Origin: a virus
Taxonomy: Duplodnaviria; Caudoviricetes
Length of the DNA: 55,819 nucleotides
Reading direction: 5' to 3' (one strand)
IMG/VR virus record: IMGVR_UViG_3300044832_000059
Location: 1-55,819 of that record
The position numbers and the translations under genes are program-made. Below, piece by piece: positions 2,843-44,949 of this stretch (position 1 is its first letter; each line of letters begins with the position of its first letter). The notes below the pieces were generated by a model. It was not told the DNA's origin. It did no database searches and was given only the letters and a program-made list of their open reading frames with translations.

Positions 2843-2872
2843 GTTATAAACCAAAAAAGATAGGAATGTCAA
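2843..2872 (-). promoter_or_regulatory. Leftward sigma70-like promoter
   Basis: TTGACA (2872-2867), N18, TATAAC (2848-2843). Confidence 0.5.
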
Positions 2873-2891
2873 CTATCAATAGGGATCGATG

Positions 2892-2921
2892 TTGACACAT
2901 ATTATAGTAATACTATATACT
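2892..2921 (+). promoter_or_regulatory. Rightward sigma70-like promoter upstream of pentamer array C
   Basis: TTGACA (2892-2897), N18, TATACT (2916-2921). Confidence 0.65.
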
Positions 2922-2941
2922 ATGAAACAGGTATACCTACC

Positions 2942-3062
2942 GTCGGGGTAAGTTGTGTTGGGGTGGGATCGGGCATGGCAGTCAGGGTTAGTCTAGTCAA
3001 ATTATGTCAAGGCATGTTGTGGCAGTCATGGAGAGTTAGGTTATGGCAAGGAGAGTCATGAT
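2942..3062 (+). ncRNA. Pentamer-periodic (G[G/T]Y-NN) array C; candidate guide RNA
   Basis: GTC gg GGT aa GTT gt GTT gg GGT gg GAT cg GGC at GGCAGTC ag GGT ta GTC ta GTC aa ATT at GTC aa GGC at GTT gt GGCAGTC at GGA ga GTT ag GTT at GGC aa GGA ga GTC at. Delimiters at 2977 and 3021. Confidence 0.8.
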
Positions 3063-3080
3063 GAAAGGGGGTGAATAATA

Positions 3081-3443
3081 ATGAGTGAAGATGTATTAAA
3101 AAAATTTTCAAGTAATACTAATATTCTCAAGTTCAATGAGGATGGAGAGATCTCTGGAATATACAAAAAGGTGTATGAGGAAGATGATCCATTCAGTAAG
3201 GATGGAGGAAAAAGGCTTATTTATCTTATTAAGTCTGATGACGACAATAAGGAGAAGCAGCTTTCTTCAACATCAAAGCGACTTGCGAGAGCGATGTATG
3301 AATCAGGTGCAAATTTTGGGGATCATATCACGATTATGCGTTTTGGTGAAAAATACGAAACAGCATTTAAAGTGAAAGTGTCTGCAAAAGAACAAGTAAC
3401 TGAAACTGAAGAAGCAGTTCCTGATATCGCAGCAGACTTTTAA
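3081..3443 (+). CDS. Putative single-stranded DNA-binding (OB-fold-like) protein
   Basis: 120 aa, beta-rich pattern, acidic tail ending in Phe (EEAVPDIAADF); strong SD AAAGGGGGTGA. Confidence 0.55.
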   Translation: MSEDVLKKFSSNTNILKFNEDGEISGIYKKVYEEDDPFSKDGGKRLIYLIKSDDDNKEKQLSSTSKRLARAMYESGANFGDHITIMRFGEKYETAFKVKVSAKEQVTETEEAVPDIAADF

Positions 3444-3444
3444 G

Positions 3445-3560
3445 GGCAGTCATGGTGGGTCTAGTTATGTTATGTCAAGTCATTTTATGTTTTGGCAGTC
3501 ATGGAGCGTTGGGGCGAGTCATGGACAGGTTGGGAGCGGCAGGAATGGTTTCATGTCTAA
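3445..3560 (+). ncRNA. Pentamer-periodic array D; candidate guide RNA
   Basis: GGCAGTC at 3445 and 3494, GGCAGGA at 3538. Segments are 42 and 37 nt, e.g. at GGT gg GTC ta GTT at GTT at GTC aa GTC at TTT at GTT tt. Confidence 0.78.
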
Positions 3561-3596
3561 TCTGGGGTGTTCTTCGGTCACAGGAGGGCATCCCTG

Positions 3597-4217
3597 ATGA
3601 GGTATGAAGTAATTATGAAAGTAGGATCAAAAACGAGTTTACATTTAAAATCAGGCGCATACGCAGCAATGCTAGGAAGAATGCGTTGTTTTTCTTGTAG
3701 AAAAAAGATTGTTGTACTGTTAGGAGGTAAGATACAAGATCTTCTTTGGGAAGATAAATTTTATTGTGAAGGATGTATCTTGCAGGTATCTCATGGTATT
3801 AAAATGCCAAGACAAATCTTTAATCCAATTTATTGGATACCTTGTCCTATCGAAGGATGTAAAAAGTATCGCAAACGATCTTTTCCTTCATGCTCAGAAC
3901 ATTTTGTATTAGTACCAAGCAAAAATCCTCCTGGAACTGCAAAAAAACTGAGAAGAAAAATCTATTATGAAGTAAAAAGGAAACCAAAAGTAACTGATTC
4001 ATCATTTAATTCTCATGGTGATACAGGAACTCTTAAAAAAGACCTCGCTTTTTGTCAAAATTACGACTGTCCTGATAAAAAACCACTACTAAGAAAAGAA
4101 ATGTACAAAATGAGAGTTGGTAATCTGAGTTTACGACCAATGTACTTTTGCTCTGTATGGTGTAAATTTGTTATAAAGGGAGAGAATCCTTCTGAAAGAT
4201 ATAAAGAATGGGTTTGA
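3597..4217 (+). CDS. Cys-rich multi-zinc-finger basic protein
   Basis: Several CxxC/CxxxxC pairs and YFCSVWCK; ATG 3597 follows AGGAGG. Confidence 0.6.
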   Translation: MRYEVIMKVGSKTSLHLKSGAYAAMLGRMRCFSCRKKIVVLLGGKIQDLLWEDKFYCEGCILQVSHGIKMPRQIFNPIYWIPCPIEGCKKYRKRSFPSCSEHFVLVPSKNPPGTAKKLRRKIYYEVKRKPKVTDSSFNSHGDTGTLKKDLAFCQNYDCPDKKPLLRKEMYKMRVGNLSLRPMYFCSVWCKFVIKGENPSERYKEWV

Positions 4218-16396: not shown

Positions 16397-16470
16397 TCTT
16401 GGGTCGTCTAAAGGTAGGACGTTGGGTTTTGGCCCCAATAATTAAGGTTCGACTCCTTACCCAAGAACCA
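16397..16470 (+). tRNA. trnQ: tRNA-Gln(TTG) with encoded CCA
   Basis: Acceptor TCTTGGG/CCCAAGA, anticodon stem TTGGG/CCCAA with loop TTTTGGC, T arm TAAGG-TTCGACT-CCTTA, 3' ACCA. Confidence 0.93.
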
Positions 16471-40205: not shown

Positions 40206-40448
40206 ATGGGAATGACAGCAGATCAACAAATACAGACTCCTCCTACGCCACCTGTTACCAAGCAGGATAACGTTGGTGTTATTGAGTTTCTTTCAGGCAA
40301 AAAGACTTATACTGTTGCTTTTCTTATGGTTGTATATGCAGCGAGTGGATATCTTGTGCATCAATTAACACAGGATCAAGCAATGACGGTTGTCTTTAAT
40401 GCTCTTGCTGTCTCTGGTCTTCGCTCTGCGATAAATTCTCTGAAATAG
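40206..40448 (+). CDS. Putative holin
   Basis: LSGKKTY..A..., two TM segments, GLRSAI; follows the endolysin. Confidence 0.7.
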   Translation: MGMTADQQIQTPPTPPVTKQDNVGVIEFLSGKKTYTVAFLMVVYAASGYLVHQLTQDQAMTVVFNALAVSGLRSAINSLK

Positions 40449-41157
40449 CCCTCTTAAAATACTCCACATATTTACTTAATCCATAAGGACTAAGTGCTGG
40501 TGCAGTATTCACTTCACAAATAACTGCATGAGGAAGGGATATATCTGTTGGTTCACTCATAATGTCTACAGCTCCAAAATCAAGCTCTAGAGCTTTAATT
40601 GCCTTCTTTGCTAGTCGAATCACTTCAATGTCCCATTCATGCTGATACAGGTATCTGAATTTGAATCCCTTCTTATGATTCCAATTCTTTGCATGTAAAT
40701 CACCATTCTCTTTAATTGAAATTGCAATAAGCTTTCCTGAACCAATATGTACTCGATATTCTTTTGTTTTTGGGTAGTAAGGACTAAAATATTGTGCTCC
40801 TTTTCTTATTGCTCTTCTCACATCATAAATGTCATGACAGTAGAAGAACTTTCTTCCTCCCTTATGATGATCTGGTCGTGCGACGCAAGGGAACGTTTCA
40901 GGAGGAACAGAGAGAAGCTGAGGCGTTGGTAAGTCATTATTCATAAAGATACGTCTTGCGGTTTCTTTATTTGTTGCGTTTCTTACTGCTTGTGCTGAAT
41001 TGAGATAATTGCCTTGGGGTCCCGAAGTAGTTACTCCCCATCGTATAATTGTTGAAACAGGTGGCTTATAAGATGAATTGGGGTAGAAAAGAGAAAAGTC
41101 CAGCATTTCTGCTAGACTTTTGCTTGTCTTTGATTTAACACTAAAAATACCAATCAT
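40396..41157 (-). CDS. RimK-like ATP-grasp ligase (phage type)
   Basis: IIRWG, ATNK, EYRVHI, LDFGAVDI, EVNTAPAL. Confidence 0.9.
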   Translation of the reverse strand: MIGIFSVKSKTSKSLAEMLDFSLFYPNSSYKPPVSTIIRWGVTTSGPQGNYLNSAQAVRNATNKETARRIFMNNDLPTPQLLSVPPETFPCVARPDHHKGGRKFFYCHDIYDVRRAIRKGAQYFSPYYPKTKEYRVHIGSGKLIAISIKENGDLHAKNWNHKKGFKFRYLYQHEWDIEVIRLAKKAIKALELDFGAVDIMSEPTDISLPHAVICEVNTAPALSPYGLSKYVEYFKRAISENLSQSEDQRQQEH

Positions 41158-41171
41158 ATTCTCATATCCTT

Positions 41172-41417
41172 AACTGCCAAGACCTGCCTCGACAGAACTA
41201 AACACAACCCAACTTACCCTGACTGCCAATACACAACGGTACACAACACAACTCGCCACGACTGCCTGTACACTCCTTAACACTACCAGACTAACCCCGA
41301 CTGCCCTACCTGGACACAACACAACTCGCCACGACTGCCATGCATTGCCCCAACAGTCCCAGACCCTCCCTGACTGCCTTGCCATGACTAAACCCACCTT
41401 GACGGTCCTTGACTGCC
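41172..41417 (-). ncRNA. Pentamer-periodic array B (6 units); candidate guide RNA array
   Basis: Delimiters (GACTGCC on +) start at 41411, 41372, 41333, 41299, 41260, 41221 and 41172 (variant). Segments are 32, 32, 27, 32, 32 and 42 nt, e.g. aa GGA cc GTC aa GGT gg GTT ta GTC at GGC aa. Confidence 0.88.
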
Positions 41418-41423
41418 ACATAC

Positions 41424-41945
41424 TTATTTTTCTAGTTCAGATTCAATTTCTTTTAATTTCTCTTCGTTAATTATTCCATTTAATTCAGAAACCATTTTGT
41501 ATTTTTCCTGAGCATGTCTTATTTCACGAATAGCACTCCTTAATACAGCAGAATGTAATTTTTCATTGTTTAGTACTTGTTCGATAGGAAAGTATTTACG
41601 TACTTTCTTATCTTCCAAAGTAACTTGTACATTAAAGAATGCAGGTTTTTCTTTACCTTCTATGGTTACACGAACGCTATTGATGAGTAGACGAGCTTGC
41701 ATTAATCGGTATCGATCTCCAGCTCTCTTATCATCCCATTCAAAGATTCTATGAAGAGGAGATGTCTCTGATTTTGCTTCTTCGACAACATCTTGAGGTG
41801 TTAATTCTTCTCCATTTTTTGCAGCAAGAAGTTCTAAAGCCTTTTTATATTCTCCTCTTTTTGTGTTTTCTTTAATTTCAATGTAATCTTTTTTTGTTAA
41901 TGTTGATAGTAATCTATCATATCCTTGATATTTCATAATATTCAC
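41424..41945 (-). CDS. Accessory protein between arrays (LTP..VV..A....SPLH..FEWDD..A...YR..QAR.LI family)
   Basis: Recognisable phage motif; strong SD AAAGGGGGGTGA; arrays on both sides. Confidence 0.8.
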   Translation of the reverse strand: MNIMKYQGYDRLLSTLTKKDYIEIKENTKRGEYKKALELLAAKNGEELTPQDVVEEAKSETSPLHRIFEWDDKRAGDRYRLMQARLLINSVRVTIEGKEKPAFFNVQVTLEDKKVRKYFPIEQVLNNEKLHSAVLRSAIREIRHAQEKYKMVSELNGIINEEKLKEIESELEK

Positions 41946-41969
41946 CCCCCTTTACTAGAGTAGGACTTA

Positions 41970-42205
41970 CTTGCTGGTCCACACCTTGCCTTGACGCAAC
42001 TTGACGCAACTAGCCCAGACTGCCCTGACATACCCATCCACATCAAACCACTACATACCGAAACGGACCTTGCCTGGACTGCCATGCCCTACTGAGACAC
42101 AACCCAACTTGACATTCCCCGACTGCCACAACATGCCTTGACATAATTTGACTAGACTAACCCTGACTGCCAAGACCTGCCTCGCCCCAATTCACCATGA
42201 CTGCC
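41970..42205 (-). ncRNA. Pentamer-periodic array A (4 units plus tail); candidate guide RNA array
   Basis: Delimiters start at 42199, 42165, 42121, 42077 and 42018. Segments are 27, 37, 37 and 52 nt, then a tail tg GGC ta GTT gc GTC aa GTT gc GTC aa GGC aa GGT gt GGA. Confidence 0.88.
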
Positions 42206-42211
42206 AAGATA

Positions 42212-42250
42212 AGAAGAAGAGGTAATATGTAAAAGACTACCTCTTCTTCT
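42212..42250 (-). other. 13-bp perfect hairpin between the RAMP-like gene and array A
   Basis: AGAAGAAGAGGTA (42212-42224) / TACCTCTTCTTCT (42238-42250). Confidence 0.75.
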
Positions 42251-42258
42251 CGTTAAAA

Positions 42259-42864
42259 CTATTCATCAGTAGTTTCGATTTCGAACGTTCCATTATCGCC
42301 ATTTCGTTCTGGTCTCCATTCTCCAAGTCCTTGACTAAATCCTGCTCGTTGTAACAGATTAAGAACCTGTTCACTAGAGAGGATGTTGGCATCGAACTTA
42401 ATCATAAGTTCCATTGACCATCCTTCCACTTGTCCTCGGAAACGAATGTCGGCAGTTCCCATTCCTACAGTAACCATATCTTGTCTCATGGTTTTTTCCT
42501 TATAGGTAAGTGGAATGAATCCATCTTTATCTCCTTCGACAAAGAGTGCCCCACGAAGAATTGTCATTGGGACACCATTGATGAATCGTGCTGATCCGAC
42601 AATTGCTTGCTTAATATTTCGTGCTGGGAAAGCAATGTTTCCTTCTGAGTCGTAGTAGAAACTACTTTCGTATTCCTTTTCAGGATCACGAACCTCACGT
42701 CCTTTCTGAGCTTTTTTCATTTGCTTATCAAGGATCATTCTGATTGCTTTTTCGTCCCATTTATGAAAAATTAAGGGAGCAGTTCCGTTGATCTTAACTT
42801 TCATTAATTGAATGTTCATTGCGGGAATTGATAATCCCTGAACGTCTTTTTTTGCTATTGGCAT
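42259..42864 (-). CDS. Stand-alone RAMP/Cas7-like RNA-binding protein (candidate Vipr-type effector)
   Basis: N-terminal VKINGTAPLI strand, FPARNIKQAI (like Cas7 IPxxxxKGxxR), IRFR...WSMELMIKF, and C-terminal Gly loop AG...GLGEWRPERNGDNGTF; adjacent to the arrays. Confidence 0.78.
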   Translation of the reverse strand: MPIAKKDVQGLSIPAMNIQLMKVKINGTAPLIFHKWDEKAIRMILDKQMKKAQKGREVRDPEKEYESSFYYDSEGNIAFPARNIKQAIVGSARFINGVPMTILRGALFVEGDKDGFIPLTYKEKTMRQDMVTVGMGTADIRFRGQVEGWSMELMIKFDANILSSEQVLNLLQRAGFSQGLGEWRPERNGDNGTFEIETTDE

Positions 42865-43555: not shown

Positions 43556-43729
43556 TCACCTCCCTTCAAGGTTTTGATCTCGATAGCTAGTAAGTGCCTC
43601 TGCTTTCTCCTGTTCTATTGTTGCAAACTCAATAATCTCATTATCACTCATATCAATGAACTGTTGCTCATTCCAATACCCCTCATTGATTCCTTCTTCA
43701 ATGTAATCTCTTGCTTCTGTAATACTCAT
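43556..43729 (-). CDS. Small acidic protein (57 aa)
   Basis: ATGA-coupled to the XRE gene; my translation. Confidence 0.5.
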   Translation of the reverse strand: MSITEARDYIEEGINEGYWNEQQFIDMSDNEIIEFATIEQEKAEALTSYRDQNLEGR

Positions 43730-44172
43730 TTTTCGTTCTCCTTATTCATAATTTCTTTAATGAATTCTTTTATCATAGATGGCTTAACTGGTTCAGATCC
43801 TCTAAATTGCCAATCATCTCCATCATATCCAGGTGCGTTATCAGGATGGTTTACTCGTGTAAATTTCTTATTAAATTGCTCTTCCCATGTTAATGGTGCT
43901 TTTTTAGAGCGAAGACCACTATTTCTCAGTACTGTAATAAGAATATTTTTCTGTTCTTCAGTAAATTTCGCACCAAGTTCCTCTAGTTTTTGTGTCATCT
44001 CTCTTGATGGGGAACTTTTTCCATTCTCCCATTGCCAAACCGCAGAGAACGTTAATCCCAGCTTATTTGCAAGGGCTTGAACTGTTATCCCTAGAGTGCC
44101 TCGCAATCGAACGATTTCATTTGCTATTTGTTTTTTGTATATAAAATACATTGATTCTTCTGATTGTTTCAT
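43726..44172 (-). CDS. XRE-family HTH transcriptional regulator
   Basis: LRGTLGITVQALANKLGLTFSAVWQWENGKSSP; probable start at MKQSEES. Confidence 0.85.
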   Translation of the reverse strand: MKQSEESMYFIYKKQIANEIVRLRGTLGITVQALANKLGLTFSAVWQWENGKSSPSREMTQKLEELGAKFTEEQKNILITVLRNSGLRSKKAPLTWEEQFNKKFTRVNHPDNAPGYDGDDWQFRGSEPVKPSMIKEFIKEIMNKENEK

Positions 44173-44223
44173 AATAATTAATTTGTAACTGTGGGGGTAA
44201 GGAGAGCTGCTCACCCCTCACAA

Positions 44224-44949
44224 TTAGTAAAACCTTATCTGGTTGGTTTTTAGGCCGTAATTGTAAATATCTTCAAGGTCACGAAGATATTCTTTTGTTG
44301 ATAATCGAGAACGCAGTCTCTCTCCTCGTTCAATAACTTTCTCTTGAAAAGTTTCTTTATCAACTTTACTCCATACCTTTTTGATTGCAGAGATGAAGTC
44401 TCGTGATCTCCATACCTGTCCTTCGGTATATGGTTTAAGTTTTGTCAAAGCTTGCGCTTCTTCATCAGCTTGTTTAAGAGATGTAACCTTAAACAATCCT
44501 GTTTTAAAGATGTATAATCGACCTCCTGACGAAATAGGAGACTCAGGTGATACGCCACTCAATAAGGAAACTGATACCGTTATCGGAAGATTATATTTAT
44601 CTAAGAAATCCTTAAGAATCATATATTCTTCGTTTTCTAGCTCAATATAACTGTCAAGATAATCTTGCAATGTCCATGGCTTTGTATTAACATTAAGACG
44701 ACGAACATCTTCAAGAGTTCCTTCTTCACGTTCAATGTAATAAAAGGGAACTTCAAGAATCTTTGCAGCTTCTAATCGATGTTGTCCATCAATAATTTTT
44801 CCGCTAGCTACGATAATGGGGTTTTCTTCAAGCATGTTTTTCTCCTGGATAGATTTAACCAAGTGACTGACATGACTTTTGTAGACCTTTCTGTTACCAA
44901 CAAAGGTATCAAATTGGTCGTAATTTGATGTTTTAACTATTGTATTCAT
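44224..44949 (-). CDS. ParB/Srx-like N-terminal domain protein
   Basis: GNR...HV..L..SI, NPIIV, IIDGQHRLEAAK, LN...KPW. Confidence 0.85.
   Translation of the reverse strand: MNTIVKTSNYDQFDTFVGNRKVYKSHVSHLVKSIQEKNMLEENPIIVASGKIIDGQHRLEAAKILEVPFYYIEREEGTLEDVRRLNVNTKPWTLQDYLDSYIELENEEYMILKDFLDKYNLPITVSVSLLSGVSPESPISSGGRLYIFKTGLFKVTSLKQADEEAQALTKLKPYTEGQVWRSRDFISAIKKVWSKVDKETFQEKVIERGERLRSRLSTKEYLRDLEDIYNYGLKTNQIRFY

What the first reader, a model, noticed from the sequence alone, without database searches (positions are those of the whole stretch)
41172..42864. Candidate non-CRISPR RNA-guided system: RAMP/Cas7-like gene plus pentamer-coded (GGY/GTY-NN) arrays and an accessory gene
Seen: on the - strand the order is a 201-aa gene, a hairpin, array A, a 173-aa gene, then array B. 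Both arrays alternate a constrained triplet (mostly GGC/GGT/GTC/GTT, sometimes GGA/GTA) with a free dinucleotide. GGC-A-GTC divides them into units and slips the phase by one base. All ten segments here are 5n+2 nt (27, 37, 37, 52; 32, 32, 27, 32, 32, 42). Known: RAMP/Cas7 proteins polymerise on guide RNA with a fixed nucleotide step and carry a C-terminal Gly loop, as this protein does. Inference: one protomer binds each 5-nt unit through the triplet, and the NN positions are displayed as a non-contiguous targeting code. No cas1/2/3/5/6 or nuclease is in the locus, so silencing or anti-competitor activity is more likely than cleavage. From memory this matches the recently reported VIPR (GGY/NN) phage systems. 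That link needs confirming, and the GTY-rich alphabet with a fixed delimiter may be a variant.
Basis: partly seen in the sequence, partly recalled or inferred. Interest (0 to 1): 0.96.

Follow-up and report, generated by a model that had tools for sequence, protein, structure and literature searches.

The report
Phage VIPR system aimed at transposases
This soil phage carries a member of the recently published VIPR family of RNA-guided DNA silencers, and at least two of its guides appear to be written against conserved motifs of insertion-sequence transposase genes.

Summary

- **Protein.** The 201-aa protein matches one solved structure by sequence, the SUSP1 Vipr protein (E 2.8e-8). It folds like Csm3/Cas7 RAMPs. 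It keeps the published GGY-binding residues.
- **Arrays.** They are G-K-Y-N-N pentamers in units of the form GTC NN (GKY NN)n GGCAG. Units overlap by one G. This fits the paper's description of "staggered arrays".
- **Relatives.** 101 of 118 homologous loci have such runs on the vipr strand, against 7 of 118 on the other strand. The 170/173-aa accessory gene recurs in 87 of 120 loci.

So this is a new member of a known kind. It is not a new system.

What is new is the target prediction under the published 1-nt-skip rule.

- **Guide A3.** It matches 26 sites exactly. All lie in IS1595-family transposase genes, on L[I/M]HTNTIEGFW, with skips at wobble positions.
- **Guide A4.** It matches an IS1-like transposase motif in 4 of 5 hits.
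- **Controls.** Reversed-pattern controls gave 0 hits.
- **Second locus.** An unrelated VIPR locus (L079) has guides to the same two families.

Host, expression and most other guides remain unresolved.

The parts
42259..42864 (-). vipr: 201-aa Vipr-family RAMP protein
   Evidence: phmmer against PDB sequences returns only 36pp_D, SUSP1 Vipr protein, at E 2.8e-8. BLASTP to the phiSUSP1 ORF gives 27% identity, E 1e-15. phrog_4652 matches at E 2.7e-33. The AF2 model has pLDDT 84.7. Foldseek finds 89 PDB hits at E<=1e-3, and the rows shown are Csm3/Cas7-type RAMP subunits.
42211..42251 (-). 16-bp hairpin between vipr and array A, followed by UUAUCUU. It may be a terminator, an attenuator or a processing element.
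   Evidence: Folding gives -22.3 kcal/mol, z -4.83. The simple terminator scan did not call it.
41976..42205 (-). Array A: five staggered vrRNA-like units, A0-A4, starting at 42201, 42167, 42123, 42079 and 42020
42079..42123 (-). Guide A2 (8 NN). Its best external match is the HTH motif GIKGVSSM of an IS1595-family transposase.
   Evidence: 16 of 16 at L167:8609, sense and wobble-aligned. This was 1 of 13 IMG/VR hits; the other 12 look like chance.
42020..42079 (-). Guide A3 (11 NN). It is predicted to target the L[I/M]HTNTIEGFW motif of IS1595-family DDE transposase genes.
   Evidence: 26 exact matches in genome contigs, all antisense to ~300-aa ORFs, with skips at wobble positions. Pfam PF12762 matched and NCBIfam NF033547 matched. 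The reversed-pattern control gave 0 hits in 401 genomes, against 17 matches in 8 genomes.
41976..42020 (-). Guide A4 (9 NN). It is predicted to target the CYAKAKNVP motif, just after QCDE(I/A)W, of IS1-like DDE transposase genes.
   Evidence: 5 IMG/VR hits, of which 4 are homologous, sense and wobble-aligned. PF03400 scored above its cut-off in 3 of 4. The reversed pattern gave 0 hits.
41424..41945 (-). Accessory gene (vap-like), 170 aa from ATG 41936 or 173 aa from GTG 41945
   Evidence: A homologue occurs in 87 of 120 vipr loci, mostly just downstream on the same strand. phrog_15946 matches at E 2e-25. There is no Pfam family. It is not similar to the ORF next to SUSP1 vipr, E 2.4. The AF2 model has pLDDT 89.8. 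Foldseek finds no PDB fold match at E<=1e-3.
41172..41417 (-). Array B: six staggered units, B0-B5, starting at 41413, 41374, 41335, 41301, 41262 and 41223
   Evidence: Whole-unit deletion and replacement are seen in other soil runs.
2942..3062 (+). Array C, a distal array with the same code. Unit C0 (2981-3025) is identical to unit A1.
   Evidence: A promoter-like TTGACA-18-TATACT site lies at 2892-2921, matching 11 of 12.
3445..3547 (+). Array D, a distal array that follows a 120-aa ORF (3081-3443) of no known family
   Evidence: The 120-aa ORF has no PHROG or PADLOC hit and no homologue in 120 vipr loci.

Best explanation
This is a VIPR (Viral Interference Programmable Repeat) system in a complete 55.8-kb soil phage genome.

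**Components.** It has one vipr gene, one conserved accessory gene, two flanking staggered vrRNA arrays, and a second pair of arrays about 16 kb away across the genome ends.

**Mechanism, inferred by homology to SUSP1 VIPR.**
- The arrays are transcribed and cut into 33-58-nt vrRNAs.
- Vipr protomers polymerise along each vrRNA. They clamp each G-K-Y triplet and expose the NN dinucleotides.
- The filament binds double-stranded DNA that reads NN-x-NN-x..., skipping one base in three.
- Binding blocks transcription. No nuclease is present.

**Targets, computed here.** Guide A3 reads codon positions 1-2 of the IS1595-family transposase motif L[I/M]HTNTIEGFW. Guide A4 reads CYAKAKNVP of an IS1-like transposase. 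Guide A2 probably reads the IS1595 helix-turn-helix motif.

**Proposed role.** The phage silences DDE transposases of insertion sequences, or of transposase-dependent parasites, during infection. Because the skipped base is the wobble base, the guides recognise the protein motif whatever the codon usage.
For: **Shown here.**
- **Vipr homology.** PDB sequence search E 2.8e-8. BLASTP to the phiSUSP1 ORF E 1e-15.
- **Fold.** Csm3/Cas7-like.
- **Functional residues.** The published SUSP1 residues H17, K33, R138, D177, W178, R179 (720927, sections 5-6) align to H34, K50, R143, E182, W183, R184. All six are invariant or nearly so in 36 relatives.
- **Pentamer statistics.**
- **Arrays with vipr.** Present on the vipr strand in 101 of 118 loci against 7 of 118 opposite; 644 runs against 13.
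- **Accessory gene.** Found in 87 of 120 loci.
- **Same unit architecture** in distant relatives.
- **Unit turnover.** Whole-unit deletion at the delimiter, and unit replacement, in independent soil runs, while the genes differ by point changes only.
- **No self-targets** above scrambled guides.

**Targets.**
- A3: 26 exact sites. By my arithmetic about 0.07 are expected for 22 fixed bases in 596 Gb on both strands.
- A3 in a phylum sample: 17 matches in 8 of 401 genomes, against 0 for the reversed control.
- A4: 4 homologous IS1-like sites among 5 hits, against 0 for the reversed pattern.
- One MAG holds both a perfect A3 site and a 16 of 18 A4 site.
- A2 and A4 match the sense strand and A3 the antisense strand. 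This fits DNA targeting, not mRNA targeting.
- The independent locus L079 has guides matching IS1-like VERQNLTMRMS at 21 of 22 and IS1595 ..KTAW.. at 16 of 18. Both are wobble-aligned.
Against: - There is no expression or binding data. No RNA run holds the locus.
- Only 2 guides have strong targets, and a third has a single hit, out of 15 distinct units.
- B5 gave one hit with the skip at codon position 1, which is probably chance.
- D0 gave 28 AT-rich hits full of stop codons.
- No genome or contig found carries perfect sites for both A2 and A3.
- The target-bearing sequences have 52-62% G+C, or come from Chloroflexota and other MAGs. The phage has 38% G+C. The true host copy has therefore not been seen.
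- The other guides do not converge on the A3 or A4 loci.
- D177 is replaced by E182.
- T (U in RNA) at position 2 in 62% of pentamers has no structural precedent in the texts I read.
- The accessory protein's fold and role are unknown.
Confidence: 0.87

Rival explanations
1. It is a functional VIPR system, but the transposase matches do not reflect its biology. The real targets would be competing phages, satellites or prophages of an unsampled host, as in the published cases. A3 and A4 would resemble transposase motifs by accident, or because the real target encodes a related motif.
For: - Most guides have no target.
- Targets and phage differ in G+C by 14-24 points.
- No element carries several guide sites.
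- A3 had 0 hits in IMG/VR.
Against: - Two guides hit two DDE transposase families, each at a conserved motif and each wobble-aligned.
- Both reversed controls were empty.
- An unrelated VIPR locus has guides to the same two families at other motifs: 6 windows at 15 of 16 or better, against 0 scrambled, out of 1029.
Confidence: 0.1
2. Some or all arrays do not arm this phage's own Vipr. They would act instead as decoy or solo vrRNAs that redirect the Vipr of rival phages. This applies especially to the distal arrays C and D, which have their own promoter-like site. The published work on satellite and phage solo vrRNAs is the model.
For: - Arrays C and D lie far from vipr, behind a promoter-like site matching 11 of 12.
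- Solo vrRNAs are described in 10.64898/2026.10.15.759431 (abstract and passages).
Against: - The genome has an intact vipr with conserved residues.
- C0 is identical to A1, so C and D share guides with the vipr-linked array.
- No guide matched relatives' vipr loci under skips of 0 to 3.
Confidence: 0.03

Closest known systems
SUSP1 VIPR (type II; Escherichia phage phiSUSP1, KT454805.2; PDB 36pp)
   Same: - The Vipr protein is homologous (27% identity, E 1e-15), with the RNA- and DNA-contacting residues kept.
- It is a two-gene operon with arrays on both sides.
- The repeat is a pentamer with two free bases.
- Targets are wobble-aligned in the catalytic core of a mobility enzyme. In SUSP1 this is the satellite's serine recombinase (759431, passages).
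   Different: - SUSP1 vrRNAs are about 100 nt, with 9-16 GGY/NN repeats and a pseudoknot tail (720920 Results; sequence seen). Here the units are 33-58 nt and tail-less. They abut with a 1-nt overlap at GGCA[G]TC.
- Position 2 is T in 62% of pentamers.
- The accessory protein is unrelated by sequence.
- The predicted targets are DDE transposases, not a serine recombinase.
Staggered vrRNA arrays and non-GGY consensus repeats of other VIPR types (720920 Results, section 20 and the fig. S18 legend; 760802 passages)
   Same: - The end of one unit is the start of the next, with a 1-nt overlap.
- Pentamer consensus sequences other than GGY are reported (NNNGG, YNNNG, NNNNG; GAC/NN, WGT/NN and others).
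   Different: I could not see the figures or the supplementary data. Whether the published staggered arrays use GGCAGTC and G-K-Y, and which of types I-VII this locus belongs to, is therefore not established.
Csm3/Cas7 backbone subunits of type III and type VII CRISPR effectors
   Same: The fold is the same: the top Foldseek hits are 9ash_F, 6xn3_F and 6ifn_F, at E 6e-7 to 7e-6. Polymerisation along a guide with periodic base flipping is taken from the literature.
   Different: - There are no cas genes and no CRISPR repeats.
- The step is 5 nt with three bases sequestered.
- There is a single RRM.
- Sequence identity is 9-16%.
Solo or orphan vrRNAs of satellites and vipr-less phages (759431)
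   Same: Arrays C and D stand apart from vipr, behind their own promoter-like site.
   Different: Here the same genome keeps vipr, and one distal unit duplicates a vipr-linked unit.

Membership tests
VIPR system | Vipr protein: a RAMP homologue with an RRM core, G-loop and thumb, related to the described Vipr proteins | tested here: met
   The only PDB sequence hit is SUSP1 Vipr, E 2.8e-8. BLASTP to the phiSUSP1 ORF gives E 1e-15. Foldseek gives 89 hits at E<=1e-3, led by Csm3/Cas7. The C-terminal GLGEWRPERNGDNG loop and a beta-hairpin at 123-147 are present in the model.
VIPR system | Residues that hold the GGY triplet and the skipped base (SUSP1 H17, R138, D177, W178, R179, K33) | tested here: met
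   They align to H34, R143, E182, W183, R184 and K50 and are invariant or nearly invariant in 36 relatives. D177 is E here, a conservative change.
VIPR system | Tandem pentamer repeats (YNNGG/GGYNN or a related consensus, 4 or more units) in the intergenic DNA beside vipr, on its strand | tested here: met
   There are 76 pentamers in 10 full units, with G at position 1 in 72 of 76. Position 2 is G or T, so the consensus is GKY rather than GGY. 101 of 118 homologous loci show such runs on the vipr strand.
VIPR system | Minimal locus: no CRISPR array and no other cas genes; a vap accessory gene | tested here: met
   Rfam gives no CRISPR repeat at gathering score. Pfam, PHROG and PADLOC give no cas genes. 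The conserved accessory gene is in 87 of 120 loci. Which of vap1-6 it is could not be determined, because the supplements are closed.
VIPR system | Viral or proviral genome | tested here: met
   The window is a whole IMG/VR virus record with direct terminal repeats and 100% estimated completeness.
VIPR system | Targets obey the 1-nt-skip rule, usually with the skip at codon wobble positions, on either strand, and with no self-targets | tested here: met
   A3, A4 and A2. There are no self-targets. Alternative skips of 0, 2 and 3 were compared only on relatives' loci, where no rule gave hits. The rule itself was therefore assumed, not derived here.
VIPR system | vrRNAs are expressed, processed and co-purify with Vipr; binding represses transcription | not testable with these tools
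   Needs small-RNA sequencing, pull-down and reporter assays.
VIPR type II (SUSP1 / P. fulva clade) | ~100-nt vrRNAs with a conserved 3' tail (a pseudoknot in the SUSP1 clade), and vap1 | tested here: not met
   Units are 33-58 nt and abut without a tail. The accessory protein is not similar to the SUSP1 neighbour ORF, E 2.4. That this ORF is vap1 is my inference from its position.
CRISPR-Cas (type III or type I) | CRISPR repeat-spacer array with cas genes (cas1/2, cas10 or cas3, several RAMPs) | tested here: not met
   None is in the window. The only weak CRISPR-DR51 match (E 1.6, 21 bits against a 45-bit cut-off) lies in a promoter region.

The most novel reading that the evidence does not exclude
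This VIPR clade is a phage-borne, RNA-guided anti-transposase system.

- Its guides are written at the level of protein motifs, reading codon positions 1-2 of the catalytic and DNA-binding motifs of IS1595 and IS1-like DDE transposases.
- One short guide can therefore silence a whole insertion-sequence family across hosts with different codon usage.
- The phage would use this either to stop insertion sequences jumping into its replicating genome, or to disable transposase-dependent parasites.
- Different phages (this one and L079) hold different guides to the same two families.
- Array units are gained, lost and swapped at the GGCAGTC junction.
Probability: 0.45. Interest if true: 0.75.

Novelty: new member of a known kind. 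Interest (0 to 1): 0.52.

Why it matters
VIPR was described only in 2026, and its natural targets are known for a few clades. Those targets are satellite recombinases, prophage regulators and rival VIPRs.

This locus adds three things:
- a compact, tail-less, staggered array form in an uncultivated soil phage;
- evidence of whole-unit turnover in nature;
- a directly testable new target class, the DDE transposases of two insertion-sequence families, recognised through codon positions 1-2 of conserved motifs.

If confirmed, phages police insertion sequences with RNA guides. Short (6-11 codon) VIPR guides could then be designed against protein motifs rather than exact DNA sequences.

Tried and rejected
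**Other RNA families**
- Hammerhead ribozyme after array D, suspected from a CTGATGAG motif: no Rfam match at gathering score, nor at E<=10 on 2850-3700.

**Targets**
- Self-targets: none above scrambled guides.
- Targets in 120 relatives' vipr loci under skips of 0 to 3: none.
- Guide B5: one 18-base IMG/VR hit, in an 807-aa ORF of an unrelated 55-kb phage (G001). The skip is at codon position 1, the other guides score at chance on that genome, and it shares no similarity with the window. I treat it as chance. B5 also had 0 hits at up to 2 mismatches in five MAGs.
- Guide D0: 28 hits, all AT-rich and full of stops.
- Guide A2 at up to 2 mismatches in five MAGs: 6 hits against 1 control. The five I examined are not transposases.
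- A4 in five Chloroflexota genomes that carry A3 sites: 0 hits.
- Convergence of the other guides on the A3 or A4 loci: none. C1 scored 13 of 14, reached by 3 of 100 scrambles, and I did not pursue it.

**Accessory protein**
- No Pfam family.
- No PDB sequence match better than E 0.04.
- No Foldseek PDB hit at E<=1e-3. There are only weak rows that include MarR/PadR-type regulators, at E about 2.
- The protein atlas gives viral hypothetical clusters only.
- Vipr-accessory complex prediction: no verdict.

**Expression and other periodic signals**
- Sequencing runs: no RNA holder is listed.
- A lag-5 signal at 14,8xx on the - strand is G-poor intergenic DNA, not an array.

**Type assignment.** Assignment to types I-VII was not possible. 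Figs S16-S18 and data S3/S4 of 720920 are supplements or images that I could not see. They may already list this clade, its accessory gene or transposase targets.

**Whether vrRNA-transposase targeting is in print.** I ran the paper search with vrRNA + transposase. I also ran find for transposase, transposon, insertion sequence and IS1595 in 720920, and for transposase, transposon and insertion sequence in 759431. The only mention is a Cas1-like transposase in a discussion of evolution.
Full report
**What is there**

The window is a whole virus record of 55,819 bp with direct terminal repeats. On the - strand lie, in order:
- a 201-aa ORF (42864..42259);
- a strong 16-bp hairpin (42251..42211; -22.3 kcal/mol, z -4.83);
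- array A (42205..41976);
- a 170/173-aa ORF (41936 or 41945..41424);
- array B (41417..41172);
- a 253-aa ATP-grasp-like gene.

The delimiter GGCAGTC is spaced 34, 44, 44, 59 and 39, 39, 34, 39, 39, 49 nt.

Read in register, every unit is GTC NN (G-K-Y NN)n GGCAG. The last G is also the first G of the next unit. Over 76 pentamers, position 1 is G in 72. Position 2 is T in 47 and G in 28. Position 3 is C 35, T 30 and A 11. Positions 4-5 are mixed.

The signal is far above chance:
- 15 runs of 4 or more GKYNN, against 0.52 in shuffles;
- 17 GGCAGTC, against 3.4 expected, reached by 0 of 100 shuffles;
- lag-5 G autocorrelation 0.26, against a shuffle maximum of 0.142.

A second locus on the + strand has the same code. 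Array C (2942-3062) and array D (3445-3547) flank a 120-aa ORF of no known family. A promoter-like site (11 of 12) lies at 2892-2921. Unit C0 is identical to unit A1.

**What the protein is**

- Pfam finds nothing.
- A search of all PDB chain sequences returns one hit, 36pp_D "SUSP1 Vipr protein", at E 2.8e-8 over residues 19-186.
- BLASTP against the corresponding ORF of phage phiSUSP1 gives 27% identity and E 1e-15.
- An AlphaFold model built on 36 relatives (pLDDT 84.7) matches 89 PDB chains at E<=1e-3. The rows shown are RAMP backbone proteins: Csm3 of type III-A, Cas7-like chains of type VII, Cmr and Cas7-11.
- The cryo-EM preprint names the SUSP1 residues that hold the triplet and the skipped base as H17, R138, D177, W178, R179 and K33 (10.64898/2026.04.26.720927, sections 5 and 6). 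In the alignment these fall on H34, R143, E182, W183, R184 and K50. All are invariant or at least 90% conserved in alignment A1.

**The family context**

- The protein has 1941 database relatives at E<=1e-3 among 1993 candidates.
- It matches 160 phage records, including Gordonia, Mycobacterium and SUSP1-like Escherichia phages.
- I fetched 118 loci from IMG/VR and metagenomes. Of these, 101 have at least one run of 4 or more GKYNN on the vipr strand, and 88 have two or more. Only 7 have a run on the opposite strand, and 19 do in shuffled copies. The totals are 644, 13 and 20 runs.
- The share of T at position 2 ranges from none to nearly all among loci.
- The exact unit form GTC..GGC|A recurs beside Vipr proteins only 31-33% identical (L030, L036).
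- A homologue of the 170-aa protein occurs in 87 of 120 loci, mostly just downstream of vipr, with or without an array between them.
- That protein has no Pfam family, no PDB relative and no clear fold match. It is unrelated by sequence to the ORF next to SUSP1 vipr.

**Comparison with the literature**

VIPR was reported in bioRxiv 10.64898/2026.04.26.720920. I read the Results in full and Methods sections 18, 20, 26 and 27. It describes:
- a Vipr RAMP protein plus a vap gene;
- vrRNAs of YNNGG repeats;
- DNA recognition in which NN pairs and one target base in three is skipped;
- transcriptional silencing;

A later preprint adds non-canonical pentamers (10.64898/2026.10.21.760802, passages only). 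A third shows that SUSP1 targets the catalytic core of a satellite recombinase with wobble-aligned skips, and that solo vrRNAs exist (10.64898/2026.10.15.759431, abstract and passages).

The present locus meets every defining feature I could test (see the membership table). It is not type II, because its units are short, tail-less and overlapping, unlike the SUSP1 arrays seen. I could not assign a type because figures and supplements were not available.

**Natural variation**

The phage DNA is held by soil-metagenome runs from several studies.
- In run X3 a contig joins 41220 to 41299. It drops exactly 78 nt, which is two 39-nt units, with a 7-nt ambiguity equal to the delimiter.
- In the more diverged run X4, 74 nt of array B are replaced by 35 other letters, and further array pieces are rearranged. 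The flanking genes differ only by point substitutions.

Units therefore behave as cassettes exchanged at the delimiter.

**Targets**

I applied the published rule, in which the target reads NN x NN x, on either strand.

*Negative results.* No guide matches the phage itself or relatives' vipr loci above scrambled guides.

*Guide A3.* It has 11 NN, so 22 fixed bases.
- It has no exact match in IMG/VR.
- It has 26 in the species-representative genome collection. By my arithmetic about 0.07 are expected for 596 Gb on both strands.
- All 26 are antisense to ORFs encoding L[I/M]HTNTIEGFW. The fixed bases fall on codon positions 1-2 and the skipped bases on wobble positions, which vary among the hits.
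- The ORFs are IS1595-family transposases: PF12762 at E about 1e-34 in 5 of 5 tested, and NF033547 at 178 bits against a 75-bit cut-off.
- Most hits are in Chloroflexota MAGs, with up to seven copies in one. A few are in Alphaproteobacteria, Bacteroidales and others.
- In an even sample of 401 genomes of that phylum, A3 at up to 2 mismatches hits 17 sites in 8 genomes. The reversed pattern hits none.

*Guide A4.* It has 9 NN.
- It has 5 exact IMG/VR matches.
- Four are homologous and encode QCDE(I/A)W(S/A)F-CYAKAKNVP, in sense orientation and again wobble-aligned. The fifth is an unrelated site.
- These genes are IS1-like DDE transposases. PF03400 is above its cut-off in 3 of 4, while NF033558 is below its cut-off.
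- The genes sit in otherwise unrelated viral contigs.
- The reversed A4 pattern has 0 matches.
- One alphaproteobacterial MAG has both a perfect A3 site and a homologous A4 site at 16 of 18.

*Guide A2.* It has 8 NN.
- It gives 13 IMG/VR hits. Twelve look like chance.
- One is the helix-turn-helix motif GIKGVSSM of an IS1595-family transposase (NF033547, 182 bits), matched 16 of 16, sense and wobble-aligned.
- A3's best site in that locus, 15 of 22, is the homologous HTN..E.FW motif of the same ORF.
- At the homologous site of the A3-perfect genes, A2 reaches only 10-12 of 16.

*Strand use.* A2 and A4 have the sequence of the mRNA, and A3 that of its complement. DNA rather than mRNA is therefore the likely target, as published.

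*Generality.* I took 1029 unique 8-NN windows from the arrays of the 118 relatives and scored them on 29 collected transposase genes.
- Six windows reach 15 of 16 or better, against none of 1029 scrambled windows.
- All six come from one locus, L079 (Vipr about 45% identical).
- One L079 guide matches IS1-like VERQNLTMRMS at 21 of 22, and at 18-21 of 22 in all five IS1-like genes.
- Another matches the IS1595 ..KTAW.. helix at 16 of 18. Both are wobble-aligned.

A second, independent VIPR system thus addresses the same two transposase families at other motifs.

**Limits**

- B5 and D0 gave only chance-like hits.
- Ten or more units have no target.
- No element carries several perfect sites.
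- The target-bearing DNA is 52-62% G+C, against 38% for the phage.
- The host is unknown.
- There is no RNA evidence.
- The skip rule was assumed rather than derived here.
- That the matched motifs contain catalytic residues is my recollection of DDE transposase literature. What is shown is only that they lie inside the Pfam DDE domain matches.
- One of the 26 A3 sites (L129) comes from a genome flagged as unpublished. Without it the count is 25.

**Verdict**

The locus is a new member of the published VIPR kind, in its staggered-array form.

The added value is a testable prediction. This phage, and at least one other, aims VIPR guides at conserved motifs of IS1595 and IS1-like transposases. 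I put about 0.9 on VIPR membership and mechanism by homology. I put about 0.6-0.7 on A3 and A4 being true transposase guides, and about 0.45 on the broader anti-transposase reading.

Noticed in passing
window 2892-3547 (+): A second pair of arrays (C, D) with the same code flanks a 120-aa ORF (3081-3443). That ORF has no PHROG, PADLOC or vipr-locus homologue. The pair lies behind a promoter-like TTGACA-18-TATACT site. Unit C0 (2981-3025) is letter-identical to unit A1 (42167..42123).
   Followed up: partly
window 41335..41224 and 42201..41174 (-): Units share partial content. B2 and B4 begin with the same four pentamers (GTCGT GGCGA GTTGT GTTGT). A0 and B5 end with the same GGCAG GTCTT GGC. 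This suggests unit duplication followed by divergence, or recombination inside units.
   Followed up: no
L003 (Mycobacterium phage Donkeykong, NC_051648.1) locus 1956-2342: The annotated 'hypothetical protein' gp48 lies over seven GKYNN runs (1975-2320) just upstream of the Vipr homologue gp49. It is probably a vrRNA array miscalled as a CDS. The same may hold for other Cheoctovirus and Gordonia phages.
   Followed up: no
L079 1162-1270 and 1425-1520: A metagenomic VIPR locus has guides that decode onto the IS1-like VERQNLTMRMS motif (21 of 22) and the IS1595 KTAW helix (16 of 18).
   Followed up: yes
window 40396-41157 (-): The 253-aa gene directly after array B matches phrog_2599 (ribosomal protein S6 glutaminyl transferase, RimK-like ATP-grasp) at E 7.5e-27. 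It is not found in other vipr loci, so it is probably unrelated to the system.
   Followed up: partly
window 43726-44949 (-): Upstream of the locus are an HTH transcriptional-regulator-like gene (162 aa) and a ParB-like gene (241 aa). This fits an early or regulatory region.
   Followed up: no
L123 / G001 2827-2852: Guide B5 matches 19 of 20 in an 807-aa ORF of an unrelated complete 55,135-bp phage with similar G+C (39%). The skip falls on codon position 1. It is probably chance, but it is the only hit for that guide.
   Followed up: yes
window 16397-16470 (+): A single tRNA-Gln (anticodon TTG) gene.
   Followed up: no
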